This document shows, one piece after another, positions 27,351 through 56,646 of a stretch of 64,000 nt of DNA. The stretch comes from a phage. The notes beneath the pieces were generated by a model. That model saw only the letters and a program-made list of their open reading frames with translations, was not told where the DNA came from and made no database searches. The stretch lies in assembly GCA_014435945.1 (NCBI GenBank), contig GCA_014435945.1_4088.1. One strand, written 5' to 3'. Made by a program: the position numbers and the translations under genes. Numbering within the stretch: position 1 is the stretch's first letter; the number at the start of each line of letters is the position of its first letter.

Positions 27351-27772
27351 GGGGATACAATAAGATTTGTATTTTTGTATTTTTAGTTTGTGCAATCAAT
27401 ACATTTGGATATTACTGTACTGAAAACAACATTTCATATGGTTTAAATCCTTTGTGGTTTACAATTGCCAATGTAGCACAAATTGGTATTGCTGTTATGT
27501 CTGCACTTATGTTCTGTCCAATTGTCACTATGGATACTGATCATGAAAGGCTTGGATTTATCCGTGATACTGGAGACGAACCTTACAGTAGATTGATTGT
27601 GTTGTATCCATTTATTGTTATTTTAGGTACTAACATCCAACTTGGGTCTTTATCTAATAGTGTTACTTCAGCAGCCATTACAGTCTTTGCATTCACATTT
27701 TTTATGGTACACAAATCAGTACTCAAATGGCACATCACAAAAATGGCAGAGAAAGGTACGGAAAACAGTTGA
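27347..27772 (+). CDS. integral membrane protein
   Basis: 141 aa; hydrophobic helices. Confidence 0.5.
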   Translation: MRGYNKICIFVFLVCAINTFGYYCTENNISYGLNPLWFTIANVAQIGIAVMSALMFCPIVTMDTDHERLGFIRDTGDEPYSRLIVLYPFIVILGTNIQLGSLSNSVTSAAITVFAFTFFMVHKSVLKWHITKMAEKGTENS

Positions 27773-36466: not shown

Positions 36467-36699
36467 TATTGAGTTTTGTAGTCGCATTATTGTTTATGTT
36501 CTACCCTACACTAGTAGCAGTAGCCACTAAACGAAAGCTGGTGGATATCACTACGGTATTCTTGCTAAACGTGGCACTCGTTCTAGTGTCTATTATCATT
36601 CCCGTGAACTTTACGGTTATTGACATGGCATCTGTATTACTATTCGTCTTCAGTTATCTTATGCTTATTGAAGAAAAACCTGTTGACAAACGTTTGTAG
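36457..36699 (+). CDS. small membrane protein
   Basis: 80 aa; two TM helices. Confidence 0.5.
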   Translation: MYLVLSFVVALLFMFYPTLVAVATKRKLVDITTVFLLNVALVLVSIIIPVNFTVIDMASVLLFVFSYLMLIEEKPVDKRL

Positions 36700-36710
36700 T
36701 ACTGTATAAT
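36683..36710 (+). promoter_or_regulatory. promoter, GTACTG-TATAAT class
   Basis: TTGACA-AACGTTTGTAGTACTG-TATAAT, overlapping end of upstream gene. Confidence 0.5.
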
Positions 36711-36757
36711 GGTTCTTGTAGTCTGAAACTTAACACTTAAACTTGAGGATATAAAAC

Positions 36758-37084
36758 ATGTTATCAGTTCTAATTTCAATTCCTGCTCTAATTCTGTTAT
36801 GGGTTATGGTTTTCGAATTCTTCATTAAAGACGAAACCGAGCGTGATGAGTTTCGTGAGTTGTTTATGTTAGACTCACCCATTGCACGAATCTTCTTCGT
36901 TGTAGTACTTATTTCAGTACTGTCATGGTTAGTAAGTTTTGTATTACCAATTGGACCATTTGTTTCAATTATGAATTTAGTTGAGAACATTGTTGGTATT
37001 GTATGGTTTACTAATGCATTGTTTGCTGGTAAAGTTTCCATTTGGTTTGATATCTTGAAAGATAAACTAACTAGTAAGAAGTAA
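36758..37084 (+). CDS. small membrane protein
   Basis: 108 aa; hydrophobic helices. Confidence 0.5.
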   Translation: MLSVLISIPALILLWVMVFEFFIKDETERDEFRELFMLDSPIARIFFVVVLISVLSWLVSFVLPIGPFVSIMNLVENIVGIVWFTNALFAGKVSIWFDILKDKLTSKK

Positions 37085-37162
37085 CGTTCAAAAAGTCTCT
37101 AATAGTATTAAATACTTCTGTACAAATAATATGTGCAGAAGTATTGCTCGTTAGAGGTTATA

Positions 37163-37528
37163 ATGAAAAAATATATAAGAATGATAATGGTGTTTGTAGT
37201 ATTCATGCTTTATTCAAGGTTCAGTACAGCCGTACCTGCTTACCTTGATTGTATGGGAAACGATGGAACATGGCATGTACTTTCTAATGACCCACAAAAT
37301 GGAAACAATATTGTCGTAGATGATGAGGTTTACCGTTTCAGGGCCGAGAGTTTGATTGGGAATAAAAAGGTATCGACATATAAATCAGATGCTGGTATAA
37401 TAGCAAATGTAATATTGATAGTGGACCCCAAGACAAAGGATGGGGATATTTACATAGTCATTTATCAAGATTCGTCGAATAAACGCGATCAGGACATTGA
37501 TAAATTGAATATTCATTGTGAACTGTAA
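37163..37528 (+). CDS. secreted small protein with Cys pair
   Basis: ATG 37163 after GAGG RBS; signal peptide; Cys near both ends of mature protein. Confidence 0.5.
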   Translation: MKKYIRMIMVFVVFMLYSRFSTAVPAYLDCMGNDGTWHVLSNDPQNGNNIVVDDEVYRFRAESLIGNKKVSTYKSDAGIIANVILIVDPKTKDGDIYIVIYQDSSNKRDQDIDKLNIHCEL

Positions 37529-37538
37529 GGTATAACAA

Positions 37539-37922
37539 ATGATAAACGATGTAATGCTTTATGTATTAATTACTCCGATTCTTATTAACTCAGTAATAAC
37601 TATTTCAATGGCATTATTTGGTATAGTAGCAATTGTTTATGCTGTTAGTACTGGAAAGTATACTTTAATTAGTAAGGTTGATTCATGGTTCGCATCTGAT
37701 AGTGTACCATATTCAGCTAGTATGATTACGATTGGTATTCTAATCGTTGCATTTACACTGCACTGTATTGGTTTTATTAATACAAGTATTTTTTCAGTTT
37801 TTATTGGTCTATCATTATATCCATCACTTTGGTACTTGATTTATGTAACCGATGTTTGGTATAATAACTACAAGCAGTACAAAGTGAAGAAATCCATTTT
37901 ATCCAAAGGAAACAAATCATGA
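37539..37922 (+). CDS. integral membrane protein
   Basis: 127 aa; 3-4 hydrophobic helices. Confidence 0.5.
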   Translation: MINDVMLYVLITPILINSVITISMALFGIVAIVYAVSTGKYTLISKVDSWFASDSVPYSASMITIGILIVAFTLHCIGFINTSIFSVFIGLSLYPSLWYLIYVTDVWYNNYKQYKVKKSILSKGNKS

Positions 37923-38273: not shown

Positions 38274-38465
38274 ATGTTGATTTATCAATGTGATAACATT
38301 CGTGTTATGCAGCATCCCTACTTACAAATCTTTGATGTGCAGCAGTATATGGAAGGTGATGACCCAAGAACCTATGGTCGTAAGTATGATTACTTCACTG
38401 TAAAGCAGTGTCGTAACATCAAAGAAGTACGACAATTAGTTCAAGAACTTCAAAATAAAGGTTGA
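38274..38465 (+). CDS. hypothetical protein
   Basis: ATG after GAGGA RBS; stop codon inside downstream TTGACT. Confidence 0.45.
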   Translation: MLIYQCDNIRVMQHPYLQIFDVQQYMEGDDPRTYGRKYDYFTVKQCRNIKEVRQLVQELQNKG

Positions 38466-38491
38466 CTTCGGTCAGCCTTTTTTGTTATAAT
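38457..38491 (+). promoter_or_regulatory. terminator-promoter cassette
   Basis: AAAGGTTGAC-TTCG-GTCAGCCTTT hairpin with T-run; TTGACT ... TATAAT. Confidence 0.65.
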
Positions 38492-40229: not shown

Positions 40230-40466
40230 ATGGAAACTATAATCATCATATGTGCGTTGTTTGCATTTTTGGTAATGTGGTCACCAACATTCATTGCATA
40301 TAAAATGAAAAATAAAAATGCAGAAGCAATTATGTACGTAAACTTATGTTGCATACTAACTTATGGAATACTTTTATTCTTTACTGAATTTACATTAATC
40401 CCAGTAGTAGTTTGTTCATCAATGTTTATTTGGTTGTTTCTGCTTTATGAATCTATTAAAAAATAA
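40230..40466 (+). CDS. small membrane protein
   Basis: 78 aa; hydrophobic. Confidence 0.5.
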   Translation: METIIIICALFAFLVMWSPTFIAYKMKNKNAEAIMYVNLCCILTYGILLFFTEFTLIPVVVCSSMFIWLFLLYESIKK

Positions 40467-41550: not shown

Positions 41551-41661
41551 TTTGACTTTGGGACAACCATTTCTTACGTGATATAATCTTAAGTGTCTGT
41601 AGAAATAAACAGCACATGAAGTATAAATATTAAAGTAATTTATCTCTTTAAGGAGTATGAA

Positions 41662-42051: not shown

Positions 42052-42085
42052 GGGGTTGACTTCAGTCAGCCCTTTGTCGTATAAT
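42052..42085 (+). promoter_or_regulatory. terminator-promoter cassette
   Basis: GGGGTTGAC-TTCA-GTCAGCCC, T-run, TATAAT. Confidence 0.65.
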
Positions 42086-42254: not shown

Positions 42255-42518
42255 ATGGCTGAAACATTATCACTATATGCGTTAGTACTGTTATTTGTCG
42301 GATTTCTTCCTGCACTCATTACAGCCATTCGTGTTGTTAAACATGAAGCTGCATTGATTGTATGTAGTATTGGGTCGAACATTCTATTGTATTTCTTTTT
42401 GACAAATACTATTGTACTGTTTGCTTTCTTTATCATGATTCTGTGGGTACTTGTAATTCTCGGATTCTTCATTTGGTCATTGGTTGATCCTAAGAAAAAA
42501 ACAGGAGAAGTGAAATGA
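42255..42518 (+). CDS. small membrane protein
   Basis: 87 aa; hydrophobic helices. Confidence 0.5.
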   Translation: MAETLSLYALVLLFVGFLPALITAIRVVKHEAALIVCSIGSNILLYFFLTNTIVLFAFFIMILWVLVILGFFIWSLVDPKKKTGEVK

Positions 42519-45062: not shown

Positions 45063-45095
45063 GGGTTGACTTCGGTCGGCCCTTTTTGCTATAAT
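45063..45095 (+). promoter_or_regulatory. terminator-promoter cassette
   Basis: GGGTTGAC-TTCG-GTCGGCCC, TTTTT, GC, TATAAT. Confidence 0.7.
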
Positions 45096-45831: not shown

Positions 45832-46170
45832 ATGGAACATCATTTTGAATTAATTAATAAGGTATCATTTTATATAGTATCGTTAGTTTGGGTGTATTAC
45901 ATGTTTGGTTACATTATTGCATTCTTCCGATACACGACCTTGTATCAACGCATATACTACGATGCACCAATTTCATTTTTGATGTTCTGTGCATGTACGT
46001 GGGGGATAATTGAAGCACTGGTATGTGGATATAGTACGGACGAATTAAATCTCGTATCGGTGTTGACATTACTAACAATTGCTACTATGATAGCTACAGT
46101 TCCAATATTTTTGCTCTTTAAACTGCTTCATCGCATCGATGAGTGGCGTAATAAAATCCCTGAAAAGTAA
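45832..46170 (+). CDS. small membrane protein, array A member 1
   Basis: About 3 TM helices with basic C-terminal tail; GGGGG RBS. Confidence 0.55.
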   Translation: MEHHFELINKVSFYIVSLVWVYYMFGYIIAFFRYTTLYQRIYYDAPISFLMFCACTWGIIEALVCGYSTDELNLVSVLTLLTIATMIATVPIFLLFKLLHRIDEWRNKIPEK

Positions 46171-46179
46171 GGATTGATA

Positions 46180-46521
46180 ATGATTTTTTACACTAATGCG
46201 TTTGCTTATGCCGTTGCATCAATCTACATTGTGTACTTCTTATTTGGTGGAGTACTGTACTTCTTTAAGTACAAAACATTGTTTAACCGAATGTATCCAA
46301 ATCATCCAATTGTAGTAGTACTTTTGATTATTTCTGTTGCTCACATCATTGTAGAAACAATAATGGGTATTAGTGCAGTACATTACAGTCTAGGTACTAT
46401 TGTGATTATTACTATGATCATCGCATACATTTTAGTAATGGGTTCTGGTTTATTTGGGAATGTAGCAATGAAATTGTATAATCGAATTAAAACCTTACGT
46501 GATAATCTACCGGAGCGTTGA
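46180..46521 (+). CDS. small membrane protein, array A member 2
   Basis: ATG 46180 after AAGGA (track used TTG 46174); same architecture. Confidence 0.55.
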   Translation: MIFYTNAFAYAVASIYIVYFLFGGVLYFFKYKTLFNRMYPNHPIVVVLLIISVAHIIVETIMGISAVHYSLGTIVIITMIIAYILVMGSGLFGNVAMKLYNRIKTLRDNLPER

Positions 46522-46522
46522 G

Positions 46523-46867
46523 ATGTATAATTTAAATTTAATATCATATATCATAACAACACTGTTTACTTTCTATGCCTTTGTTGGTATACTCCTACTG
46601 TACTTTAAATTTTATAAACTCTTTGACCGTTTTTATCCGTCATTAGAACATGAATTCTTATTGGTGATGTACATCTGTCTAACGTTTATGTCTACATTTT
46701 TCACTGCATCTGATGGTATCATTGGTATTAAAGCTGAAGAACCAAATGGGAGTACGCTTGTTGCCTTTATTCTGGTAGGATTTTTCAGTACTTATATTAC
46801 CTTTATTTCAGGATGTACCGTGATTGATTATCTTGTGAAATTACGAGATAAAATGCCAAATCGATAG
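46523..46867 (+). CDS. small membrane protein, array A member 3
   Basis: ATG 46523 after GGAG (track used GTG 46499); same architecture. Confidence 0.55.
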   Translation: MYNLNLISYIITTLFTFYAFVGILLLYFKFYKLFDRFYPSLEHEFLLVMYICLTFMSTFFTASDGIIGIKAEEPNGSTLVAFILVGFFSTYITFISGCTVIDYLVKLRDKMPNR

Positions 46868-46876
46868 GGGATTGCT

Positions 46877-47134
46877 ATGTTTGCATTGCGTAATAAAAAT
46901 ACAAAAGAGATTCTATGTATCTCAACAGTATGGGATTGTGCAGGAAGTGAAATGATTCTCGAAGAAGGTTCAGGTGATTGTGTTTATGTTGTTCAGGATC
47001 GTCGCGAACTGGAATCATTACTTGACGAATTTAATGCTGGTGGAAATCCTAAAAGTACTCAATTCCCTGAGATCAGGAATCCAGCACCACCAGGCTCTTA
47101 TGAAATTCTACAACTGTGGGAGATGGATAAGTAA
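46877..47134 (+). CDS. hypothetical protein
   Basis: 85 aa. Confidence 0.5.
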   Translation: MFALRNKNTKEILCISTVWDCAGSEMILEEGSGDCVYVVQDRRELESLLDEFNAGGNPKSTQFPEIRNPAPPGSYEILQLWEMDK

Positions 47135-47514
47135 TGCGTCAAATGCACAAAGTAACCGAGCTAAACAAGCGTCTGATTAAACAATCAATGTTTGAGGATA
47201 AAGAGTCTTACTATAACTTCAAACGTGCTGTAGAGGCTGCTATCCACATTCAGAAGCTTAAAGAACGTGGTTGTATTATTCTCGAAAATGGTTCTGACGT
47301 TGTGACGAATGACTTCAGTGTAGCGTTTGATGTTTCACCTGATGGTTCGCTATCAATGCCACGCTTAGGGACTGGTAACATGACTGTGTGGGTAGGTTTC
47401 ACTATGGGAAATGTACCAGGTACTGTGTATGTAGATGATGCTGAGTTGAAAGAAAGCTTCAAAAACTTATCGTATCTTGAACCACAACACGCACATGAAA
47501 TGAATTTATTTTGA
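47134..47514 (+). CDS. hypothetical protein
   Basis: 126 aa; TAATG overlap. Confidence 0.5.
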   Translation: MRQMHKVTELNKRLIKQSMFEDKESYYNFKRAVEAAIHIQKLKERGCIILENGSDVVTNDFSVAFDVSPDGSLSMPRLGTGNMTVWVGFTMGNVPGTVYVDDAELKESFKNLSYLEPQHAHEMNLF

Positions 47515-47515
47515 G

Positions 47516-47543
47516 TTGACAAACTCATTCAGTACTGTATAAT
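47516..47543 (+). promoter_or_regulatory. promoter, CAGTACTG-spacer class
   Basis: TTGACA-AACTCATTCAGTACTG-TATAAT. Confidence 0.6.
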
Positions 47544-47552
47544 GTTTATCAA

Positions 47553-47573
47553 GGGGATGAACTTCTCATCCCC
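47553..47573 (+). promoter_or_regulatory. 5' leader hairpin
   Basis: GGGGATGA-ACTTC-TCATCCCC downstream of -10. Confidence 0.45.
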
Positions 47574-47590
47574 ACAATCGAGGAATTGTC

Positions 47591-48145
47591 ATGATTACTT
47601 TTAAGAAAACTGCTAACCACATCCATGAGATCTACATTAACGGTCACAAAGCTGGCCTTCTTCGTTTACTCGCCCATCATCCGAATATTACCGTATCTGA
47701 TAATGAACCTAAAGATTGGCGTGTATTTTTCTTTGGAAAGTACAGTGATTTTCAAGTATCAAACCTGAAGAACATTCGTTCAGTATGCACGTTAACTGAA
47801 ATTAAAGAAAAGTTAACCAAAGCATTGAAAACTAATCCAGATAGTGTTCTTCCACCTGATAACTTTGTAGAGAAAGGATATGCCTTAGCTCATTTCAAAG
47901 ATGGTACTATTCAATCTATCAGTACTGAATATGAATATCAATGGACTGAGTACTTCACTTATGGATCGCGTAATACATTGATGGCTTCACGTAGTAAATT
48001 GGAAGAAGTACTGACTCGTATGAATGAACGCGAGCGTCAATTATATGACAAACCAGAAATGTGGAGTTCAACTTACATTGACCGTATTGACTATGTTATT
48101 ATGACTCCAATCTTTGACACTGCTTACTATGATTCTTTGAAATAA
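47591..48145 (+). CDS. hypothetical protein
   Basis: 184 aa; GAGGAA RBS. Confidence 0.55.
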   Translation: MITFKKTANHIHEIYINGHKAGLLRLLAHHPNITVSDNEPKDWRVFFFGKYSDFQVSNLKNIRSVCTLTEIKEKLTKALKTNPDSVLPPDNFVEKGYALAHFKDGTIQSISTEYEYQWTEYFTYGSRNTLMASRSKLEEVLTRMNERERQLYDKPEMWSSTYIDRIDYVIMTPIFDTAYYDSLK

Positions 48146-48156
48146 GGATAACTTAT

Positions 48157-48333
48157 ATGAAACTACGTACTCGTAATCGACTGATGGATGCACTGTACCA
48201 TGAACAGCTTTCACTGAATGAAGTGAAGCGACAGTTAATGTACACATATCTGTTACCCGCTCGCATTGCAAAACAACGTGCTAAAGAATTGCTGAAAGAA
48301 GCAATCGAGTACTGGGAATCTGATTCGTACTAA
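48157..48333 (+). CDS. small hypothetical protein (58 aa)
   Basis: Below track cutoff; TAAGGA RBS. Confidence 0.35.
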   Translation: MKLRTRNRLMDALYHEQLSLNEVKRQLMYTYLLPARIAKQRAKELLKEAIEYWESDSY

Positions 48334-48361
48334 TTGTCACGTTAATTAAATGAGGCGATAA

Positions 48362-48613
48362 ATGAAAATTTTATTAGTTCTAATACTACTAATTGTTTTA
48401 CCATTTACGTTAGTATCCCCTGAACTTGCATGGAATGTGTTTGTGTACTTACTATGTACTATTGTAGTAAATGGTATCTTGTTCTTAGTTCTATTCATAA
48501 ATGGAATAGGACACGGTGGAGGATGGACCAGTACTGCTGATATTGTACATAAAACCACTATGTCTTTATTTGTAGTGTGGAATTTATTCTGGACTTGGTT
48601 TGTGTTCTTCTAA
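48362..48613 (+). CDS. small membrane protein
   Basis: 83 aa; hydrophobic. Confidence 0.5.
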   Translation: MKILLVLILLIVLPFTLVSPELAWNVFVYLLCTIVVNGILFLVLFINGIGHGGGWTSTADIVHKTTMSLFVVWNLFWTWFVFF

Positions 48614-48622
48614 TTAAAAAAT

Positions 48623-48994
48623 ATGAATATAGATTTGAAAGGTGCAACACGAACTGTCATACTCATTGGGGAATATGCTATCAAGATTCCAACCTTTAAA
48701 AGTTGGAAGCTATTCTTAACAGGGATGATAGCTAACCTCAATGAACGTTCGTGGATGCAGTACTCCAAGCGTAGTGATACTGGTATCTGTCCTACTTTGT
48801 GGTCATCATGTACTGGACTAGTAACTGTACAGAAACGTTGTAAGCCAGTACAACATAGGGGTTTATTTTGGGTGGAGTTGTGTGCTTTAGCATTGAATTC
48901 AGAGTTAAGTACTGACTTCTTCTATTCAGATGCGAAGCCAGAAAACTTTGGGTATCTGTGTGGTAAGTTGGTTAAACTTGATTATGGAGATTAA
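48623..48994 (+). CDS. hypothetical Cys/Trp-rich protein
   Basis: 123 aa. Confidence 0.5.
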   Translation: MNIDLKGATRTVILIGEYAIKIPTFKSWKLFLTGMIANLNERSWMQYSKRSDTGICPTLWSSCTGLVTVQKRCKPVQHRGLFWVELCALALNSELSTDFFYSDAKPENFGYLCGKLVKLDYGD

Positions 48995-48995
48995 T

Positions 48996-49265
48996 ATGTA
49001 CGCATTGTATAATAAAGAAAAGAAACGATTTGCTAAGGTTGAAATTTCGATTGATACATTTGACATGTTGGAGTACTGTATTGTAACGGATTTATATGCT
49101 AACTTGTATTACGTTCTTGATGACGTATCAGTACTGCAACGATTGCTTGAGAATTCCAAAAGCCAATGCCAGGGCATCTATGATGGTTCATCTTATGAAA
49201 CACCTGAGTGTTCCTACGGCTATCTGGACGGGTATGAGATTGTGAAGTTGGGGATTGTTGAATAA
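48996..49265 (+). CDS. hypothetical protein
   Basis: ATG 48996 two nt after upstream stop, GGAG RBS (track start 48930 overlaps). Confidence 0.5.
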   Translation: MYALYNKEKKRFAKVEISIDTFDMLEYCIVTDLYANLYYVLDDVSVLQRLLENSKSQCQGIYDGSSYETPECSYGYLDGYEIVKLGIVE

Positions 49266-49358
49266 ATGGATTAAACAATGAAGAAGTGTATCATTCTTTG
49301 TTCTAATCACCATCGCATGGTACATTCTGGTAGACTATGTTTGATTGAAAGAAAAAAA

Positions 49359-49391
49359 GGGTTGACTTCAGTCGGCCCTTTTTGCTATAAT
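49359..49391 (+). promoter_or_regulatory. terminator-promoter cassette
   Basis: GGGTTGAC-TTCA-GTCGGCCC, TTTTT, GC, TATAAT. Confidence 0.7.
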
Positions 49392-49419
49392 CATTTCATC
49401 GAAACGAGAGGATGAATAC

Positions 49420-49935
49420 ATGACACGCATTAACTTAGTACACGTTAAAGAACTTGCTGACCAACATCTGATGGCTGAATATCGTGAACTCCCACGTGTG
49501 TTTGGTGCTGTACAAAAACATGTTCAAGCACGTAAGCGAGTCCGTGATTTCAAAATTAACAGTACTTACCTGTTAGGTTCAGGTCATGTAACATTCTTCT
49601 ACAACAAGTTATTGTACTTACAGAAGCGTCATATTGATATTGTTAACGAATGTTTGCGTCGTGGTATGAAGATTCAAAACACTGAAGTAAACGACATTAG
49701 CGGATTCCCTGCTGAGTTTTGTAATGACTACGTACCATCGGAGTCAGAGATTAAAATGTCTCGTGAGCGTTTGATTGAGAAGCTACAGATGAAGCCTACG
49801 TGGTATAAATTTACTGACGTTGAACGCCCACAGTATGTTAAAGATATGCAGGACGTAAGTAGTAATATAGAATCTAGTACTGATATGTTCGACGAAATTG
49901 AAGAACAAATCAAAGATGAAATGAATAATTATTAA
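49420..49935 (+). CDS. denV: pyrimidine-dimer DNA glycosylase (T4 endonuclease V homolog)
   Basis: N-terminus [31 protein letters not shown] and [15 protein letters not shown] closely match the T4 DenV sequence as I recall it. Confidence 0.85.
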
Positions 49936-49941
49936 AGGAAA

Positions 49942-49974
49942 GGGTTGACTTCGGTCAGCCCTTTTTGCTATAAT
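49942..49974 (+). promoter_or_regulatory. terminator-promoter cassette
   Basis: GGGTTGAC-TTCG-GTCAGCCC, TTTTT, GC, TATAAT. Confidence 0.7.
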
Positions 49975-50000
49975 TATTTTATCGAAACGAGAGGTAATAC

Positions 50001-50213
50001 ATGAAACTATCTTTTATACGTTTAGCAGAATTCTTCGGTACTGATATTATTACTTTACAACAAATTGCAGACAATACTTCATTAAGTACACAAGAAGTAC
50101 TTGACTTAGATGTAATTCAGTGCGATAATACTTCCATTGATTTCAAAGAAGGTCTTGTCGAAAAAGATAAGATTCAAGCTAAGATTAATGGTGCTGGACG
50201 GGTTCAGTACTGA
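50001..50213 (+). CDS. hypothetical protein
   Basis: 70 aa; GAGAGG RBS. Confidence 0.5.
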   Translation: MKLSFIRLAEFFGTDIITLQQIADNTSLSTQEVLDLDVIQCDNTSIDFKEGLVEKDKIQAKINGAGRVQY

Positions 50214-50229
50214 AAAGGAGTATTGAGTA

Positions 50230-51378
50230 ATGTTTGAAAAGTACTATTTAAATGAAGATGGTGAGAAAGTTTATATTATTGAAGAATTATGTACTAAATT
50301 TGAGTACATGAAAATAGAAAATGTTCCTGTAAAAAATAAAAAAACTATCGTTAGAATTGATGAAATTAAACTAAAAGCCATTGAAAAAGAAGATACTATT
50401 TTTGGCTTACAGATATCAAACAGTAATCAATTTTTTGGACTAGAAAAGAATAAAGTTCTGTTTAGATGTGGAACATGCAGCACTTTATGTACAAGTTCAC
50501 TGAAAAGTTATCTTATCTCTGGTGGATGTCAGATATGTGGTAAGAAGAAAAGAAAAGAGTACCAAAACACTATCAAAATATCTGAATCTGATGCATTAAA
50601 AGAAATACAAAAAGAGTGTAAACGCGAATCTATTACATTTATCAAATTTGAAGGTGAATTTACTACAAAATTCAAATCTAAATTTTGGTACAAATGTAAA
50701 AACAACCATACTCGTTTATGTGAGAACATTTATGATTTTCTTAATGGTCATAATTGTGTTGAATGTCGTGATTACAGCTCGGCAAAAAAGATTCGTTTGA
50801 ATATTCTAGTAGTCAAATATGAAATAGATAAAAGAAACGCAGTTTGTAATAATACCTTTATTGGATTTGTGGGAGGTGTTTATGAAACATCAAAAACAAA
50901 ATTACATTTACAGTGTAATGATTGTAATAACCCATTTTATCCATCATATCATAACTATATATCATCTGAGTCTTCATGTCCTACCTGTTCATCAGGTGAG
51001 AGTAAGAATTTAGTTGATATTGATGGTATGTTAGAAGATGATACCATAAAAGAGAAACGCTTCATTGATTGTAAGTTCAAAAAGCCATTACCTTTTGATC
51101 GATTTATTGAAAGTAAACGAATCCTTCTGGAATATGATGGAGTACAACATTTTCAATCAATCAAATTATGGGGCGGCAAAAGTGCTTTTGAACAAAGAAA
51201 GATAAAAGACGCAATAAAAACTGAGTACGCCATCAACAACGGTTACAACTTCATTAGGATTGCATACTATGAAGACCACGTTGCAGTACTGAAATCTTTT
51301 CTAAAACTTATCGAAGATAATCCAGAAAAGCAAATCGTACAGATTTATGGTGAAGTACAAATCTTAGACAAGAAATAA
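50230..51378 (+). CDS. zinc-ribbon-rich protein with C-terminal endonuclease-like region (possible homing-endonuclease-like)
   Basis: Several CxxC pairs; C-terminal LEYDGVQHF...RKIKD...GYNFIRIAY resembles Vsr/PD-(D/E)xK-type nuclease core (low certainty). Confidence 0.5.
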   Translation: MFEKYYLNEDGEKVYIIEELCTKFEYMKIENVPVKNKKTIVRIDEIKLKAIEKEDTIFGLQISNSNQFFGLEKNKVLFRCGTCSTLCTSSLKSYLISGGCQICGKKKRKEYQNTIKISESDALKEIQKECKRESITFIKFEGEFTTKFKSKFWYKCKNNHTRLCENIYDFLNGHNCVECRDYSSAKKIRLNILVVKYEIDKRNAVCNNTFIGFVGGVYETSKTKLHLQCNDCNNPFYPSYHNYISSESSCPTCSSGESKNLVDIDGMLEDDTIKEKRFIDCKFKKPLPFDRFIESKRILLEYDGVQHFQSIKLWGGKSAFEQRKIKDAIKTEYAINNGYNFIRIAYYEDHVAVLKSFLKLIEDNPEKQIVQIYGEVQILDKK

Positions 51379-51388
51379 CAATACAAAA

Positions 51389-51421
51389 GGGTTGACTTCG
51401 GTCAGCCCTTTTTGCTATAAT
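51389..51421 (+). promoter_or_regulatory. terminator-promoter cassette
   Basis: GGGTTGAC-TTCG-GTCAGCCC, TTTTT, GC, TATAAT. Confidence 0.7.
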
Positions 51422-51449
51422 TATTTCATCAACTGATGAGGATAACGAA

Positions 51450-52220
51450 ATGACCAGAGAAGCACGTAGCATTCAAATCCAGAAAAACTTCAACTCCATG
51501 ATGGTTGCTCTTGAGTGTTTGCTCGATGATAGCAGTACTGTAAAAAGTATGGTTGTCAGTGGTGCACCTGGTGTTGGTAAGACTTACACCCTGTCACAAC
51601 GCCTCCAGAAAGCTCATGACGCAGCAGAATGGAACGTAGCTACTATCAGTGGTAAGATGACTACTCTTGCTCTGTATGAAGTTCTGTACAAGAATCGTCA
51701 CAGCACTAACGTATTAGTACTGGATGATATGGACAGCATCTTTGATTCAGAAGACGGTATGAACCTGCTCAAAGCAGTACTGGACAGCGGTAAACGTACT
51801 GTGTCTTACATGACTAGCTCTAAGTACTTAACTACCAACGGTATCCCTAACAGCTTTGATTTTAACGGTCGTATCGTATTCATTACTAACAAAGATTTAG
51901 CACTGAATGCTAAAGCTAAAACCAAAATGTCTGCTCACTATGCTGCTCTTATGTCTCGCTCTGTGTATGTTGACTTACAGATCCAGACTAAAAGCGATAT
52001 CATGATTCACATTGAAAACGTAATGAACAAGACCAACATCCTGTCAACTAAAGGTGTTAATAGTAATGGTAGCAAAGCAATCCTGAATTGGATGCTGAAA
52101 CATGAAGATGCACTTCGTGCCCCTTCACTGCGTATGCCTCTGTTGATTTCAGCAGTATACAACAACAACCCGTATGATTGGGAAGAGCAGTGCGAAAATT
52201 TGTTCCTTGAGAAAATTTAA
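51450..52220 (+). CDS. P-loop NTPase (AAA-like ATPase)
   Basis: Walker A GAPGVGKT; Walker B-like VLVLDDMD. Confidence 0.7.
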   Translation: MTREARSIQIQKNFNSMMVALECLLDDSSTVKSMVVSGAPGVGKTYTLSQRLQKAHDAAEWNVATISGKMTTLALYEVLYKNRHSTNVLVLDDMDSIFDSEDGMNLLKAVLDSGKRTVSYMTSSKYLTTNGIPNSFDFNGRIVFITNKDLALNAKAKTKMSAHYAALMSRSVYVDLQIQTKSDIMIHIENVMNKTNILSTKGVNSNGSKAILNWMLKHEDALRAPSLRMPLLISAVYNNNPYDWEEQCENLFLEKI

Positions 52221-52228
52221 TTACATGT

Positions 52229-52258
52229 ATTGACAGTACTACCATAGTGTAGTACTAT
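52229..52258 (+). promoter_or_regulatory. candidate promoter with AGTACT-rich spacer
   Basis: TTGACA then about 17 bp then TACTAT. Confidence 0.4.
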
Positions 52259-52287
52259 AACTTAATATTCACCACCGGAGATACGAT

Positions 52288-52626
52288 ATGCTTGAGTTTT
52301 TTAATTCAGATACAATGCTTAGTATTACTTTGATTTATCTGTTTGGTTTTTTCTTTTATCATGCACTAGTTGTAGTACTATGGTATTTTAAAAAGAAAAT
52401 CGTTTTCAAACTGTATCCTGATGGAAACATTTCACTACTTCTTTTCACTATTATCCAAGGTATGTTTGCAATTGTTGGTCTTATCGCACACTTAATTTAT
52501 TGTGCTAATCCACAGTTGAACTCAATATCACAATATATTGTATTCCTTGGATTACTAATTTGGGTGCTGATATACTTGTTTAATCTCATCATCAATGGTA
52601 GAGCAAAAATTCGTGGGGACTTCTAA
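52288..52626 (+). CDS. small membrane protein, array B member 1
   Basis: 112 aa; about 3 TM helices; basic C-terminal tail. Confidence 0.55.
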   Translation: MLEFFNSDTMLSITLIYLFGFFFYHALVVVLWYFKKKIVFKLYPDGNISLLLFTIIQGMFAIVGLIAHLIYCANPQLNSISQYIVFLGLLIWVLIYLFNLIINGRAKIRGDF

Positions 52627-52973
52627 TGTTTGAATCTTATCTTGAGTTTTTAAAGAGTAGTTCTGTTGCACATTCAATTGCAGGGATTATTCTAACAGGT
52701 TATGTAACATTTTGGGTAGTTATGTTTCTAGGATGGTATTTTAAACGACAATTCTATAAGCGTAATGGTGAAGATTTTATGAATTCTTTCATTAATCAAT
52801 CGTTGTTTGCATCAACATTGATAGCATCTATTGTAGCAACACTCACTGGAAAGGTACTGCCAGCATTCTCCGCAGTTTACGGTACATTGGGTATGATATG
52901 TGTAGTTTTTTACTTGATCATTAAACTTTGTTGTGTTATGATTGACCTTCGAAACAAGATACCGGAGGAATGA
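52626..52973 (+). CDS. small membrane protein, array B member 2
   Basis: TAATG overlap; tail ends DLRNKIPEE, like array A. Confidence 0.55.
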   Translation: MFESYLEFLKSSSVAHSIAGIILTGYVTFWVVMFLGWYFKRQFYKRNGEDFMNSFINQSLFASTLIASIVATLTGKVLPAFSAVYGTLGMICVVFYLIIKLCCVMIDLRNKIPEE

Positions 52974-53308
52974 TGGAATATTTTTTACACTTACTGCCGT
53001 GGTATATGAAAGTTAGTACTATGTACTATATTCTTAGTGCTGGATTCTACTTTCTGATGTGGTTCTTCAAACGACCAATTTCAGTATTCATCTCTGATAA
53101 CATGCTGCAATTAAAATTACACGCATGGTTTGGTATGGCGATGATTATGCCAATTATTCACTACTCAATGATTAGTAGAGGGTTCCGTTCCAATGGTGAA
53201 CCAATTGTATTAGTATTCTATTGGGGTTCAACTATTGCATATGTAAGTTTGTTGTTGTTCCCAGTCGTTCATAAATTACGTGCTAAAGTTCCTGATGCGA
53301 GGTACTAA
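52970..53308 (+). CDS. small membrane protein, array B member 3
   Basis: ATGA overlap; same architecture. Confidence 0.55.
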   Translation: MMEYFLHLLPWYMKVSTMYYILSAGFYFLMWFFKRPISVFISDNMLQLKLHAWFGMAMIMPIIHYSMISRGFRSNGEPIVLVFYWGSTIAYVSLLLFPVVHKLRAKVPDARY

Positions 53309-53622
53309 TGGATATCGTAACATTGATTTACACGCTTTATTCATTCTATTTTATTATGTGTTGGGTTGGATTTTTATTTGTATTGAAGATGTTTGATTAT
53401 GTTGAAAAACAGATAAAAGAATTTTGTATTCCTTTTATTGGGTCAACCATAATTAGTATTACTTGTTTGTATTATTTGGTATGTGATCCACCTGTTAATA
53501 CAGCAATGATTGACTTCATGTTATTACCAACAACTGTTATTTTTTTATGTAGTCTGATGCCACCGATTAGTCGTGGGCTAACCGAATTTAGACGCAATCA
53601 AAAGCGTAAACGAGGGATGTGA
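53308..53622 (+). CDS. small membrane protein, array B member 4
   Basis: TAATG overlap; same architecture. Confidence 0.55.
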   Translation: MDIVTLIYTLYSFYFIMCWVGFLFVLKMFDYVEKQIKEFCIPFIGSTIISITCLYYLVCDPPVNTAMIDFMLLPTTVIFLCSLMPPISRGLTEFRRNQKRKRGM

Positions 53623-53990
53623 TGGAAATTACACTTATTATATTAACTGCTATGTTGTTTATTAGTACAATTGTTATTATTGGCAAGTTCTTCTGTGTAT
53701 CCTTCTTGGAAACCGTATACGATGAAATTGCTGATGATTATGAATTACATGCGGGATTTTTTACTACGTATTGGATTAGTTTATTACTACTTATCACTGT
53801 ATGGATTTTACATATATTCAAATGGGGTATGGTAGATGGTGATCCAGTACTGGCAATTATCTGTGTAGTGTTTGGTCTACTCGGTGGTGCTGTCCATAAT
53901 CTGATGGTAATTTGGCAAACCGTACAATATGTATTAGTTCCACATTTTCAGAGAATGCACCAAAGCATCAAATACCGCAAACGAGGATAA
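53619..53990 (+). CDS. small membrane protein, array B member 5
   Basis: ATGA overlap; same architecture. Confidence 0.55.
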   Translation: MMEITLIILTAMLFISTIVIIGKFFCVSFLETVYDEIADDYELHAGFFTTYWISLLLLITVWILHIFKWGMVDGDPVLAIICVVFGLLGGAVHNLMVIWQTVQYVLVPHFQRMHQSIKYRKRG

Positions 53991-53991
53991 C

Positions 53992-54354
53992 ATGAATAAT
54001 ATTGAATTATCTTTTATTGGTCAATTAATGGTAATGGCGTATACATTTATCTTCTCACTGAATGCATTCGTGTGCATTGGGAAGTACTTCCATAAGCGAC
54101 CATTATCAAATATATATGATGTAATACAAAGGAGATATAGCCCAGCATATACTGTGTTGAGTACAGCATTCAATTTTGGTTTTATTCTAATGCTGGTTGC
54201 ATTATTAACATCGAGTTTAAATTTTATAACATTTGGTATTATGGTATGTTCACTAACACTGAGTGTGGTTATTCTCTGTGCATCCGTTGAGTTGATGGCG
54301 TGGATGTATTATAAGATTTCCGAAATCCATGACCGTTTAGGTAAGAGGAACTAA
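53992..54354 (+). CDS. small membrane protein, array B member 6
   Basis: Same architecture. Confidence 0.55.
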   Translation: MNNIELSFIGQLMVMAYTFIFSLNAFVCIGKYFHKRPLSNIYDVIQRRYSPAYTVLSTAFNFGFILMLVALLTSSLNFITFGIMVCSLTLSVVILCASVELMAWMYYKISEIHDRLGKRN

Positions 54355-54355
54355 A

Positions 54356-54727
54356 ATGAGTTATCGTGAAATATTTTCGATCATTACTATTATTGTTTTT
54401 AGTTTAGGTTCTTTGGTGTGGTTATTGTATTACTTCTGTGTAACCCCAGTATATAATATGCTAAATTCAGTACGCTCTGATGTTGGTATTGTTTCTTTTA
54501 TTATCTTCATGGCATATTATATGCTAAGTATCACAGGTTTGGTTTTGGTTGTTATCTTTGACCTTGGACCGAATCAAGATGGTATGGAGGTGTGGGAATT
54601 GATAACGATGTTTGCATGTATGATACCTGCATTTGGTGTATGTGCTGGTGTATTTTATGGGTTATGTAAAGGTGTGAACTACTTAAAAAATATCCACAAT
54701 ACTATTCGTAAAAAACGTATGTTATAA
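54356..54727 (+). CDS. small membrane protein, array B member 7
   Basis: Same architecture; tail IRKKRML. Confidence 0.55.
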   Translation: MSYREIFSIITIIVFSLGSLVWLLYYFCVTPVYNMLNSVRSDVGIVSFIIFMAYYMLSITGLVLVVIFDLGPNQDGMEVWELITMFACMIPAFGVCAGVFYGLCKGVNYLKNIHNTIRKKRML

Positions 54728-54728
54728 T

Positions 54729-54764
54729 AAAAATCCAGTACTATTATAGTACTGGATTAATTTT
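54729..54764. terminator. bidirectional terminator at strand switch
   Basis: Perfect 10-bp stem ATCCAGTACT/AGTACTGGAT with A-run and T-run flanks, between convergent genes. Confidence 0.7.
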
Positions 54765-55887
54765 AATTATCTAAGCCACCAATTACACTGAACTGTGTGG
54801 TAACGTCTGAACTATTATCTATGTAAGTTCTTCTACCAACATAATATAGTTGTCCTTTTGCTTGTATAAAAGTTACTGTCCCTGTATTGAATGTTATAAT
54901 ATCATTGTATGTAATGTCAGGTGGTAGTGCTGCTGATAACGCAGTAACTTTACTTAATGCAGCACTAGTACTACCATTTATACCAGCAGCAATACTACCA
55001 GTACCATAGAACTTATTATCTTTACCAATGAATACGTTGGCTGATGCTTGTGTAGCTGATGTTATTGCCTTACCAATTTGGAATGCGGTTCCTATGGTGT
55101 ATGGTGTGCTCCTGGCTGCGTCTATGCTTTGTGTATATCCATCCCCTAGCTGACCATTAACTTTGTCACCACATGAGTATAGAGTACCATTGAGGCTGTA
55201 TATGATCCCACGGTTAGAGAAGCTAACAGCTTCTGCATTAGTCCATACTGGTGCGGTGTATGAGTTTACACGACTAGCGGTAGTTCCTAGACCTAGTATA
55301 CCATATGTGTTATCACCACATCCAAACCATTGCCCAGAACTGTTTTGATAGAACACTGAACGTTCTGTTGATTCCATGCGTACAGCATCCACAGCACCAC
55401 TTTTAACGAACGAAGTGGATGAGGATGTAGTACCAGTACCCAATGCACCATAAGTGTTTGTACCAATCGCATAGATTGATCCTAGTGGTGTCATAACACG
55501 TATGCAGTTATATCCCAATTGAACTTTACATTCAAATAGGTTGTCCCATATTTCAGGAACAGCAGAAAATAAATTTGTAATTTCGAACCATGATGTTGTC
55601 GAACCAGTTAATCCTATACTGCTTTTGTTTCCTAAAATGAAAACAGTTTTGTCCTTCTTAATTATCCATGATGATAGGAAACCTATCTCACAGCTATGAA
55701 CATTTGATTCTATTTGGGTAATATAATACTTAACTGTGTTATCACCCATGAATGCCGCAGCACCGGATGCAAAAAGGTTTCCAGTTTGTTTATTTAAAAT
55801 GTAGTTATTGTTTCCATATACTCTAACATCATAAGAACTTTCTTGTTTTTCGTTCCCATAATCAAATAACAATACGAAAGGTAACAT
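54763..55887 (-). CDS. RCC1-like repeat (beta-propeller) protein, MLPF family paralog A
   Basis: N-terminus MLPFVLLFDYGN; Gly-rich repeats YGALGTGTT, YGILGLGTT, NGQLGDGYT. Confidence 0.65.
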   Translation of the reverse strand: MLPFVLLFDYGNEKQESSYDVRVYGNNNYILNKQTGNLFASGAAAFMGDNTVKYYITQIESNVHSCEIGFLSSWIIKKDKTVFILGNKSSIGLTGSTTSWFEITNLFSAVPEIWDNLFECKVQLGYNCIRVMTPLGSIYAIGTNTYGALGTGTTSSSTSFVKSGAVDAVRMESTERSVFYQNSSGQWFGCGDNTYGILGLGTTASRVNSYTAPVWTNAEAVSFSNRGIIYSLNGTLYSCGDKVNGQLGDGYTQSIDAARSTPYTIGTAFQIGKAITSATQASANVFIGKDNKFYGTGSIAAGINGSTSAALSKVTALSAALPPDITYNDIITFNTGTVTFIQAKGQLYYVGRRTYIDNSSDVTTQFSVIGGLDN

Positions 55888-56615: not shown

Positions 56616-56646
56616 AAGAAAAGCCAGTACATAGTACTGGCATTAT
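56614..56646. terminator. bidirectional terminator hairpin
   Basis: GCCAGTAC-ATA-GTACTGGC flanked by A-run and T-rich tract. Confidence 0.65.

What the first reader, a model, noticed from the sequence alone, without database searches (positions are those of the whole stretch)
45832..54727. Two tandem arrays (3 + 7) of paralogous small 3-TM membrane proteins
Genes at 45832-46867 (three) and 52288-54727 (seven) each encode a protein of about 104-123 aa with about three hydrophobic helices and a short basic C-terminal tail (for example ...RNKIPEK, ...LRDNLPER, ...DLRNKIPEE, ...IRKKRML). Within each array the genes are linked by overlapping or adjacent stop/start codons, implying co-translation. 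Ten diversified copies of one membrane-protein architecture is unusual; possibilities include superinfection-exclusion or immunity-type proteins, or modulators of envelope functions.
Basis: partly seen in the sequence, partly recalled or inferred. Interest (0 to 1): 0.65.

Follow-up and report, generated by a model that had tools for sequence, protein, structure and literature searches.

The report
Ordered array of phage membrane-protein paralogs
Ten small genes in an E. coli jumbo phage (121Q/PBECO4 group) are real, diverged copies of one previously undescribed three-helix inner-membrane protein, kept as an ordered gene array in several related giant phages; what they do has not been tested.

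Summary
The window comes from an Asteriusvirus, a 121Q-like E. coli jumbo phage. All ten ORFs are real genes. Each has a ribosome-binding site, dN/dS against relatives is 0.07-0.43, and relatives annotate them as hypothetical proteins. All ten have three predicted membrane helices with an N-out/C-in charge pattern.

Profile comparisons place them in one superfamily with two branches, A1-A3 plus B1-B3, and B4-B7. Conservation is concentrated in two cytoplasm-facing motifs: L-W-[FY]-F-K at the end of helix 1, and a tail of R-x-K-I-P-E or H-x-x-h-x-K-R. The rest of the protein is variable.

The family is tiny: 40 clusters at 50% identity among 1.84 billion proteins. It matches no Pfam, NCBIfam, PADLOC or PDB entry and no informative fold.

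Four more diverged jumbo-phage lineages keep the same layout: a T4 NrdC.10-like ATPase followed by 8-12 of these genes with the subtypes in the same order.

Both arrays lie downstream of sigma-70-type promoter/terminator cassettes and have no T4-type late promoter. Their phAPEC6 orthologs were not found in virions.

My best reading is that these are early, non-structural inner-membrane proteins with paralog-specific membrane targets, acting in exclusion, immunity or anti-defence. A hetero-oligomeric complex with the ATPase is a serious rival. The function remains inferred.

The parts
45066..45095 (+). Composite hairpin-terminator and sigma-70-type promoter cassette (TTGACTTCGGTCGGCCCTTTTTGCTATAAT). 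It is the nearest such cassette upstream of array A and heads the unit 45122 ORF, 45547 ORF, A1-A3.
   Evidence: Ten matches with at most 1 mismatch in the window against 1.33 expected, all on the + strand. Six of them (38462, 42056, 45066, 49362, 49945, 51392) are near-identical copies of the cassette, and the copy read in full has the hairpin plus T-run typical of T4-type PeSL elements.
45832..46170 (+). A1, 112 aa, three membrane helices, branch I, tail ...WRNKIPEK.
   Evidence: phrog_19285, E 7.7e-48; SD GGGGG; dN/dS 0.19-0.26.
46180..46521 (+).
   Evidence: A1-A2 blastp 3e-10; WPEC3 start; SD TAAGGA; dN/dS 0.06-0.15.
46523..46867 (+). A3, 114 aa from ATG 46523 (the ORF is open from GTG 46499), branch I, tail ...LRDKMPNR.
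   Evidence: (SD GGAG; dN/dS 0.31-0.43).
51392..51421 (+). The same hairpin/promoter cassette (GGGTTGAC-TTCG-GTCAGCCC-TTTTTGC-TATAAT), 29 nt upstream of the ATPase start. It is the probable early promoter of the ATPase plus array B operon.
   Evidence: The cassette core also sits just upstream of the ATPase gene in 121Q, Turkey5 and A4.
51450..52220 (+). P-loop ATPase, 256 aa, homolog of T4 NrdC.10 (function unknown). It is co-oriented with array B and lies directly upstream of it.
   Evidence: weak AAA/STAND hits; phrog_1250; 38% identity to T4 NrdC.10, E 7e-56. It precedes the array in L008, L012, L013 and L014.
52230..52258 (+). Weak promoter-like site (TTGACA-17-TACTAT) overlapping a hairpin (AGTACTAC/GTAGTACT), in the 67-nt spacer between the ATPase and B1.
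   Evidence: Function is inferred only.
52288..52626 (+). B1, 112 aa, branch I, tail ...GRAKIRGDF.
   Evidence: phrog_19454; it also hits the branch II HMM at 2.2e-6.
52626..52973 (+). B2, 115 aa, branch I, tail ...LRNKIPEE. It is the best-connected member.
   Evidence: phrog_19046; A-B2 94.6%, E 7e-8; B2-B3 95%, E 4e-8; AlphaFold model.
52973..53308 (+). B3, 111 aa (or 112 aa from ATG 52970), branch I, tail ...LRAKVPDARY. Its helix 1 is less hydrophobic than in the others.
   Evidence: (phrog_27396).
53308..53622 (+). B4, 104 aa, bridging subtype of branch II, tail ...FRRNQKRKRGM.
   Evidence: (phrog_33258). The B4-like protein of L008 hits the B4, B5 and B2 HMMs.
53622..53990 (+). B5, 122 aa from ATG 53622, branch II, tail ...MHQSIKYRKRG.
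   Evidence: phrog_26405; B5-B7 88%, E 3.5e-6.
53992..54354 (+). B6, 120 aa, branch II, tail ...IHDRLGKRN.
   Evidence: B5-B6 69%; it hits the branch I HMM at 6e-7.
54356..54727 (+). B7, 123 aa, branch II, tail ...IHNTIRKKRML.
   Evidence: phrog_27618; AlphaFold model.
54732..54758 (.). Perfect 12-bp hairpin between B7 and the convergent RCC1-like gene. It is a likely bidirectional terminator that closes the array B operon.

Best explanation
WHAT IT IS

Shown:
- The ten genes belong to one lineage-restricted superfamily of proteins of about 110-120 aa with three predicted membrane helices and an N-out/C-in charge pattern.
- The family arose by ancient tandem duplication.
- It is kept as an ordered, tightly packed array directly downstream of a T4 NrdC.10-like ATPase, plus a second small array 6 kb upstream.
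- This layout is found in Asteriusvirus and in related jumbo phages of Enterobacteriaceae.
- The genes sit in units headed by sigma-70-type promoter/terminator cassettes.
- Their phAPEC6 orthologs were not detected in virions.

HOW IT MOST LIKELY WORKS

Inferred:
- Host RNA polymerase transcribes the arrays early in infection.
- The proteins insert into the host inner membrane.
- Two conserved cytoplasm-facing motifs, WFFK at the end of helix 1 and the R/H-containing basic tail, give every paralog the same cytoplasmic handle, for insertion, regulation or a shared partner.
- The variable helix 2, periplasmic loop and helix 3 give each subtype its own membrane target.
- Together the set protects or reprograms the infected cell's membrane. 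Candidate activities are blocking DNA entry by competing phages, or neutralising pore-forming toxins or membrane-acting abortive-infection effectors.

I put about 0.85 on the descriptive layer and about 0.35-0.4 on this functional layer.
For: Real genes:
- Each has an SD 5-10 nt before its start.
- dN/dS is 0.07-0.43 against 121Q and ph0011.
- All ten are annotated as genes in WPEC3 and the orthologs in 121Q, and all but two in phAPEC6.

One superfamily:
- Orthogroup profile links are A-B2 E 7e-8, B2-B3 E 4e-8 and B5-B7 E 3.5e-6.
- Merged branch I against branch II gives E 8.5e-7 over 97 collinear columns, against 3.5e-4 for reversed profiles and 0.016 for the best shuffle.
- Bridging members and cross-hits support the link, and no other window ORF is hit.

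Topology: K+R is 67 in loop 1 plus tail against 5 in the N-terminus plus loop 2.

Conserved cytoplasmic motifs with a variable core: in 52 non-redundant sequences F is invariant and R is present in 51 of 52.

Early, non-late context:
- Cassettes lie at 45066 and 51392.
- TATAAATA occurs only at 41622 and 42864, the latter 22 nt before a virion-protein gene.

Non-structural: phAPEC6 gp012c-017c, gp028c-029c and gp018c are absent from the 62-protein virion list, while the adjacent RCC1-like proteins are present (PMC7247149).

Fast and mosaic evolution:
- dN is above that of most neighbouring genes for most members.
- dS ranges from 0.16 to 2.8 between adjacent genes.
- B2 is 32% identical to its best match in JNE01.
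- Copy number differs: array A has 1-4 members and array B 7-9 within the genus, and 8-12 in diverged lineages.
Against: - No experiment or transcript data exist for these genes. The early timing rests on promoter-like sequence only.
- The most conserved residues face the cytoplasm. That is not what one expects if the key contacts were with incoming phage or toxin components in the periplasm.
- Subtype order (B2/B1/B3, then B4, B5, (B6), B7) is conserved in lineages with under 30% identity, and the array is always tied to the ATPase. This looks more like a fixed multi-part apparatus than a fast-turnover arms-race family.
- dN/dS stays below 1 everywhere, except a noisy near-identical pair.
- Small hydrophobic proteins are easily missed by virion mass spectrometry.
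Confidence: 0.4

Rival explanations
1. The paralogs are subunits of one hetero-oligomeric inner-membrane complex. It would be made in fixed proportions by translational coupling and would be driven or docked by the co-transcribed NrdC.10-like ATPase through the conserved cytoplasmic WFFK and basic-tail motifs. The job of such a complex is unknown. It could be a membrane anchor or a transport or assembly platform.
For: - ATPase followed by the array occurs in five lineages. In L008, L012 and L013 the gap between the ATPase stop and the first member is only 1-4 nt.
- Subtype order is conserved.
- Stops and starts overlap.
- Conservation is confined to cytoplasm-facing motifs.
Against: - Copy number varies: the extra B1-like gene gp224 is present in 121Q and ph0011 but absent here, B4 is doubled in JNE01 and Turkey5, B6 is absent in the Klebsiella phage, and array A has 1-4 copies.
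- WPEC3 carries a 59%-identical ATPase allele next to a 96-99%-identical array, so the two are exchanged independently.
- More than 1,200 T4-like genomes have the ATPase homolog, and in T4 and HY01 no membrane-protein array follows it.
- Array A lies 6 kb away under its own promoter.
Confidence: 0.25
2. They modulate host physiology by binding host inner-membrane proteins such as transporters, respiratory or division proteins. This would resemble bacterial small membrane-protein regulators or phage host-takeover modules, and would not be concerned with competitors or defence.
For: - Early-type promoter context.
- Inner-membrane topology.
- Subtypes conserved between E. coli and Klebsiella phages, as expected if the targets are conserved host proteins.
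Against: - There is no homology to any known regulator.
- Rapid sequence divergence and allele mosaicism are unusual for ligands of conserved host targets.
Confidence: 0.15
3. They are holins, antiholins or lysis-timing proteins. Their size, three helices, N-out/C-in topology and charged C-terminus match class I holins.
For: Architecture only.
Against: - No holin family in Pfam or NCBIfam is matched, even at E up to 1.
- The promoter context is early-type, with no T4-type late promoter.
- No neighbouring gene matched a lysozyme/endolysin family; spanins were not specifically looked for.
- Ten to twelve conserved copies are unheard of for holins (my own knowledge).
Confidence: 0.07
4. They are spurious or untranslated ORFs in AT-rich DNA.
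For: None beyond their small size and their 'hypothetical' annotations.
Against: - dN/dS is 0.07-0.43 and every gene has an SD.
- Full-length homologs occur in diverged lineages, with protein-level motifs conserved while the DNA has diverged.
Confidence: 0.01

Closest known systems
T4 Imm and similar early phage inner-membrane superinfection-exclusion proteins
   Same: They are small and encoded by a virulent myovirus. They appear to be early, are non-virion, and are predicted to sit in the inner membrane. They also lie in a variable, PeSL-type region of the genome.
   Different: - There is no sequence match to any Pfam family, Imm families included.
- Imm has two helices and is a single gene (my own knowledge). 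Here there are three helices and 10-12 ordered paralogs.
- No exclusion phenotype has been tested.
Class I holins (lambda S105 type)
   Same: They share the size range of about 100-120 aa, three membrane helices, N-out/C-in topology and a basic cytoplasmic tail.
   Different: - No holin family is matched.
- The promoter context is early-type rather than late.
- There are no adjacent lysis genes.
- The genes are multi-copy.
E1-type immunity proteins of pore-forming colicins (about 100-115 aa, three helices; recalled from memory, not tested)
   Same: They have a similar size and helix count. The concept is also similar: a diversified family in which each member protects the membrane against one specific attacker.
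   Different: - No sequence match was found.
- The charge pattern here predicts N-out/C-in, and I did not verify the colicin immunity topology.
- These genes are phage-borne arrays, not plasmid toxin-immunity pairs.
PHROG families 19285, 19454, 19046, 27396, 33258, 26405 and 27618
   Same: Nine of the ten proteins are clear members, with E between 1e-46 and 1e-62. A3 and B6 match only weakly.
   Different: PHROGs keeps them as seven separate families of unknown function. This analysis joins them into one superfamily with a defined signature and a conserved genomic arrangement.
T4-type PeSL cassettes (promoter-early stem-loops) of hyperplastic regions (PMC2839356, PMC4122927)
   Same: The repeated hairpin-plus-promoter element at 38462, 42056, 45066, 49362, 49945 and 51392 has the same composite design. 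It also brackets modules that differ between genomes.
   Different: It is found here in a jumbo-phage lineage outside the T4-like phages where PeSLs were described (PMC4122927). The sequence itself is lineage-specific.

Membership tests
Class I holin | Small protein with three membrane helices, N-out/C-in, and a charged C-terminal tail. | tested here: met
   Hydropathy and AlphaFold models. K+R distribution is 67 inside against 5 outside.
Class I holin | Sequence membership in a described holin family. | tested here: not met
   No Pfam or NCBIfam holin model is matched at E up to 1.
Class I holin | Late expression and linkage to endolysin and spanin genes. | tested here: not met
   Sigma-70-type cassettes lie upstream, and there is no TATAAATA near the arrays. 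None of the neighbouring genes that were searched matches a lysis family. The timing is inferred from sequence only.
Class I holin | Forms lethal membrane lesions that release endolysin. | not testable with these tools
   This needs expression and complementation assays.
T4 Imm-type superinfection exclusion protein | Homology to Imm or another described exclusion family. | tested here: not met
   No Pfam, NCBIfam or PADLOC hit. PHROG hits are to families of unknown function, apart from weak hits of B2 and B4 to phrog_16874, labelled only 'membrane protein'.
T4 Imm-type superinfection exclusion protein | Early-expressed, non-virion inner-membrane protein. | tested here: inconclusive
   Promoter-like cassettes and absence from the phAPEC6 virion proteome fit this feature. 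No transcript data exist.
T4 Imm-type superinfection exclusion protein | Blocks DNA entry by a superinfecting phage. | not testable with these tools
   This needs plating and DNA-injection assays.
The new superfamily (WFFK / basic-tail three-helix proteins) | About 100-130 aa, three helices, [VI]-L-W-[FY]-F-[KR] at the cytoplasmic end of helix 1, and a conserved R (branch I) or H (branch II) in a basic C-tail. | tested here: met
   All ten align to the family profiles. F is invariant and R is present in 51 of 52 non-redundant branch I sequences.
The new superfamily (WFFK / basic-tail three-helix proteins) | Located in a co-oriented tandem array, with the main array directly downstream of the NrdC.10-like ATPase. 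| tested here: met
   Seen in the window and in WPEC3, 121Q, JNE01, Turkey5, A4, ph0011 and phAPEC6. Also seen in L008, L012, L013 and L014.
PeSL composite terminator/promoter cassette | A repeated short element that combines a stem-loop plus T-run with an early sigma-70-type promoter, located between modules of variable genes. | tested here: met
   The definition is taken from PMC4122927. Activity as a promoter or recombination site was not tested.

The most novel reading that the evidence does not exclude
The 8-12 ordered, translationally coupled paralogs assemble into a phage-built hetero-oligomeric inner-membrane machine. The conserved cytoplasmic WFFK and tail motifs would dock the co-transcribed NrdC.10-like ATPase. 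That would be a previously unknown ATP-driven membrane apparatus of jumbo phages, and it would give the first functional handle on the widespread T4 NrdC.10 family.
Probability: 0.15. Interest if true: 0.8.

Novelty: new variant of a known kind. Interest (0 to 1): 0.45.

Why it matters
Jumbo phages carry hundreds of genes of unknown function, and the ways they remodel the host membrane are largely unknown. This analysis turns ten 'hypothetical proteins' into a defined superfamily. The family now has a sequence signature, a predicted topology, a conserved operon layout next to a widespread ATPase of unknown function, and a clear split between conserved cytoplasmic motifs and a variable membrane core. 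That makes it directly testable with plasmid expression, phage and colicin challenge panels, and interaction assays with the ATPase. If the paralogs prove to be specificity variants of an exclusion or anti-defence module, or subunits of a new membrane machine, the result would apply to a whole clade of Enterobacteriaceae jumbo phages that are being considered for therapy.

Tried and rejected
- Pairwise blastp among the ten links only A1-A2-A3 and B1-B2. Profiles were needed to go further.
- Pfam, NCBIfam, PADLOC and PDB sequence searches gave only sub-threshold, compositional hits.
- The search for related loci with the broad alignment failed because no stretch was conserved enough. With a narrower alignment it returned one IMG/VR locus, on a 346-kb contig.
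- The word-indexed protein searches found 22 hits for branch I and 12 for branch II; every hit that carries a source name is from one of these jumbo phages or E. coli, and the rest are unnamed metagenome proteins.
- I asked whether the ATPase link is general. It is not. The homolog, T4 NrdC.10, is in more than 1,300 phage records. In T4 and HY01 it is followed by soluble proteins.
- The ATPase has no informative PDB relative.
- The split B4 in 121Q (gp228/gp229) is a +1 T in a T-run. It could be a sequencing error, so I did not use it as evidence that B4 is dispensable.
- Five Asteriusvirus-related papers and three literature searches never mention these genes.

Full report
SOURCE AND CONTEXT

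The window is about 35% G+C. Window 45000-55000 matches Escherichia phage WPEC3 at 97.7% identity and other 121Q/PBECO4-like jumbo phages of the genus Asteriusvirus (350-385 kb) at 85-98%.

Both arrays lie on the + strand in a block of small genes of unknown function. That block also holds a T4-type endonuclease V gene (49420-49935), a homing-endonuclease-like gene, and a P-loop ATPase. A block of RCC1-like beta-propeller genes runs convergently from 54763.

CHECK OF THE OBSERVATION

All ten ORFs are present. Relatives annotate them as hypothetical proteins.

Using the ATG starts annotated in WPEC3, the genes are:

| Gene | Coordinates |
|---|---|
| A1 | 45832-46170 |
| A2 | 46180-46521 |
| A3 | 46523-46867 |
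| B1 | 52288-52626 |
| B2 | 52626-52973 |
| B3 | 52973-53308 |
| B4 | 53308-53622 |
| B5 | 53622-53990 |
| B6 | 53992-54354 |
| B7 | 54356-54727 |

- Hydropathy gives three helices in nine of the ten. B3's first helix is weaker but aligns with helix 1 of the family.
- AlphaFold models of B2 (pLDDT 75.6) and B7 (pLDDT 72.3) have the same plan: helix 1, a short helix, helix 2, a loop, then a long helix 3 that continues into the tail.
- Lys+Arg counts are 3 (N-terminus), 26 (loop 1), 2 (loop 2) and 41 (C-tail). By the positive-inside rule this predicts N-out/C-in.
- Stops and starts overlap or are 1 nt apart throughout array B. In array A the spacers are 9 nt and 1 nt.
- Every gene has a Shine-Dalgarno sequence 5-10 nt upstream. 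In most cases it is written into the last codons of the previous gene. For example, the B2 tail CCG GAG GAA TGA supplies GGAGGA for B3. Part of the tail's conservation may therefore serve two purposes. The invariant Arg lies outside the SD, and the last gene of each array keeps the tail as well.

ARE THEY REAL GENES?

Against 121Q and ph0011, dN/dS is 0.07-0.43 for all ten genes. Full-length protein homologs exist in lineages whose DNA no longer aligns. The idea that these are untranslated ORFs is rejected.

ARE THEY PARALOGS?

- Plain blastp links only A1-A2-A3 and B1-B2.
- PHROGs places the proteins in seven families of unknown function, with weak cross-hits between them.
- I built orthogroup alignments from eight genomes and compared the profiles.

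| Profile pair | Probability | E-value | Columns |
|---|---|---|---|
| A - B2 | 94.6% | 7e-8 | 99 |
| B2 - B3 | 95% | 4e-8 | 91 |
| extra A copy of JNE01 - B1 | 91% | 1e-6 | 100 |
| B5 - B7 | 88% | 3.5e-6 | 118 |
| B5 - B6 | 69% | 4.6e-5 | 39 |

Reversed-profile controls in that run reached E of about 0.012 at best.

Merging the groups into branch I (A1-A3, B1-B3) and branch II (B4-B7) gives 91.5% probability and E 8.5e-7 over 97 collinear columns, with the motifs in register. The controls for this comparison were:
- reversed profiles, E about 3.5e-4;
- the best of 30 local column shuffles, E 0.016;
- an unrelated 83-aa membrane family from the same window, no match.

Family HMMs hit only these ten of the 246 window ORFs of at least 50 aa. 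There are cross-branch hits, B1 to branch II at 2e-6 and B6 to branch I at 6e-7. Members from diverged phages bridge the two branches. For example, the B4-like protein of L008 hits B4, B5 and B2.

I conclude that the ten genes form one superfamily. Support is very strong within each branch and good between the branches.

SIGNATURE

Among 52 non-redundant branch I sequences (under 60% identity), information content is high at only two places:
- [VI]-L-W-[FY]-F-K at the cytoplasmic end of helix 1, where F is invariant;
- the tail R-x-[KN]-[IL]-P, where R is present in 51 of 52.

Branch II keeps G-x-[FY]-F at the first site and has H-x-x-h-x-[KR]-[KR] in the tail. Helix 2, the periplasmic loop and helix 3 are variable. 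The conserved features therefore face the cytoplasm and the variable ones lie in or across the membrane.

DISTRIBUTION

- An exhaustive HMMER search of 1.84 billion representative proteins found only 40 clusters with E at or below 1e-3. All are 56-122 aa, mostly full-length matches, and the sequences inspected carry the same motifs. Ten of these clusters looked up are unnamed proteins from metagenome assemblies.
- Word-indexed searches found 22 (branch I) and 12 (branch II) proteins.
- tblastn against 50,697 phage records hit only Escherichia and Salmonella phages; all those examined are Asteriusvirus.
- IMG/VR yielded one locus.
- There is no hit in Pfam, NCBIfam, PADLOC or PDB sequences, and no informative structural match.
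- No paper on these phages mentions the genes.

CONSERVED LAYOUT

Four diverged lineages carry the same arrangement:
- L008, a 324-kb ENA metagenome contig;
- L012 and L013, two Logan contigs;
- L014, a Klebsiella jumbo phage of the phiKp_21 type.

In each, a 254-256-aa protein in the position of the ATPase is followed by 8-12 small three-helix genes. In three of the four the gap between the two is only 1-4 nt.

HMM assignment shows the same subtype order everywhere: branch I copies (B2, B1 and B3 types), then B4 type, B5 type, usually B6 type, B7 type, then further diverged members. The duplications are therefore old and the subtypes have been retained.

Copy number still varies:
- 121Q and ph0011 have an extra B1-like gene that is absent here.
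- JNE01 and Turkey5 have two B4 copies and an extra array A member.
- A4 and L008 have a single A-type gene.
- The Klebsiella phage lacks B6.

Synonymous divergence differs more than ten-fold between adjacent array genes (B3 0.16, B7 1.7-2.8). WPEC3 has a 59%-identical ATPase allele next to a 96-99%-identical array. These regions are therefore recombination mosaics.

THE ATPASE

It is 38% identical (E 7e-56) to T4 NrdC.10, a conserved protein of unknown function. It belongs to phrog_1250 and has homologs in more than 1,300 phage records. In T4 and HY01 the downstream genes are soluble. The link between the ATPase and the array is therefore specific to the jumbo lineage.

EXPRESSION CONTEXT

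A near-identical 30-nt element, GGGTTGAC-TTCG-GTCAGCCC-TTTTTGC-TATAAT, recurs at 38462, 42056, 45066, 49362, 49945 and 51392, always on the + strand. Ten matches with at most one mismatch were found against 1.33 expected.

- The element combines a hairpin plus T-run with a TTGACT-N18-TATAAT promoter. This is the design of the T4-type PeSL cassettes that mediate module shuffling (PMC4122927, PMC2839356).
- Its core also occurs in the diverged lineages.
- One copy heads the unit that contains array A. Another lies 29 nt before the ATPase.
- A perfect 12-bp hairpin at 54732-54758 closes array B.
- The T4 late-promoter motif TATAAATA occurs only twice in 64 kb. One copy is 22 nt before a gene annotated as a virion structural protein. 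Neither is near the arrays.

In phAPEC6, the 62-protein virion proteome contains the neighbouring RCC1-like proteins (gp003-gp010, gp549, gp551). It does not contain gp012c-gp017c, gp028c-gp029c or the ATPase gp018c (PMC7247149).

Early, non-structural expression is therefore likely but not shown.

INTERPRETATION

Shown:
- a new, lineage-restricted superfamily of three-helix proteins predicted to lie N-out/C-in in the inner membrane;
- its ancient tandem expansion;
- its ordered arrangement downstream of the NrdC.10-like ATPase.

Inferred:
- early expression;
- a shared cytoplasmic handle, with paralog-specific recognition within the membrane.

I favour a role in protecting or reprogramming the infected cell's membrane, through exclusion, immunity or anti-defence (about 0.35-0.4). 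The reasons are the early context, the membrane location, the fast and mosaic evolution, the copy-number changes, and the precedent of T4 Imm-type proteins.

The main rival is a hetero-oligomeric complex with the ATPase (about 0.25). It is favoured by the conserved order, the tight coupling and the cytoplasmic conservation. It is weakened by copy-number variation, by independent allele exchange, and by the fact that T4-like phages carry the ATPase alone.

Modulation of host physiology (about 0.15) and a holin-like role (about 0.07) remain possible. The holin idea fails on family membership, promoter type and gene neighbourhood.

NOVELTY AND SCORE

The genes are already deposited and clustered in PHROGs as unknowns. 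New here are:
- their unification into one superfamily;
- the sequence signature and predicted topology;
- the conserved ATPase-array arrangement;
- the contrast between conserved and variable regions.

I file this as a new variant of a known kind, namely phage-encoded small early membrane proteins in variable genome regions. It is of moderate interest because the function is still open, but it can now be tested.

Noticed in passing
window 38462-38491, 42056-42085, 45066-45095, 49362-49391, 49945-49974, 51392-51421 (+): A near-identical cassette combining a hairpin terminator with a sigma-70-type promoter (GGGTTGAC-TTCG-GTCAGCCC-TTTTTGC-TATAAT, followed by a conserved ATTTCATC). It resembles T4-type PeSL elements. 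It brackets modules that differ between Asteriusvirus genomes, such as the HNH/endonuclease region 49945-51392. Its core is also present in the diverged lineages L012-L014.
   Followed up: partly
window 54763-55887 (-) and further RCC1-like genes downstream; L017 (phAPEC6) gp003-gp010: A block of paralogous RCC1-like beta-propeller genes runs convergent to array B. Databases annotate them as 'DNA condensation' proteins, yet eight phAPEC6 members were detected in virions by mass spectrometry (PMC7247149, Table 1). They are therefore structural, and may be the 'hairy' fibres of these phages.
   Followed up: partly
window 51450-52220 (+): The NrdC.10-like ATPase exists as two alleles only 59% identical within otherwise 97%-identical genomes (window against WPEC3). 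Compared with T4 NrdC.10, it lacks the N-terminal 77 residues.
   Followed up: partly
window 14065-18038 (+): Seven tRNA genes. They include three tandem tRNA-Thr(TGT) copies, a long-arm tRNA called Ser with anticodon ACT, and a 90-nt tRNA with anticodon CAT.
   Followed up: no
window 52233-52257, 54732-54758, 56623-56641: A second family of perfect hairpins sharing an AGTACTA core. One lies between the ATPase and B1, and two act as terminator-like sites between convergent genes.
   Followed up: no
window 26913-27772, 36457-37922, 40230-40466, 42255-42518, 48362-48613 (+): Eight further small ORFs with 2-4 predicted membrane helices. None is related to the array family, since none is hit by the family HMMs. 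The 83-aa protein at 48362 is 96-100% conserved across the genus.
   Followed up: partly
L002 (121Q) 10683-10998: 121Q gp228/gp229 is the B4 ortholog, split by one extra T in a T-run. It is either a true pseudogene or a homopolymer sequencing error.
   Followed up: yes
L008 13755-14078, L012 13586-13894, L013 7637-7948, L014 8377-8736: A further conserved three-helix type (N-terminus ...VVAYHVL...) closes the array region in all four diverged lineages. It has no counterpart after B7 in the window.
   Followed up: no
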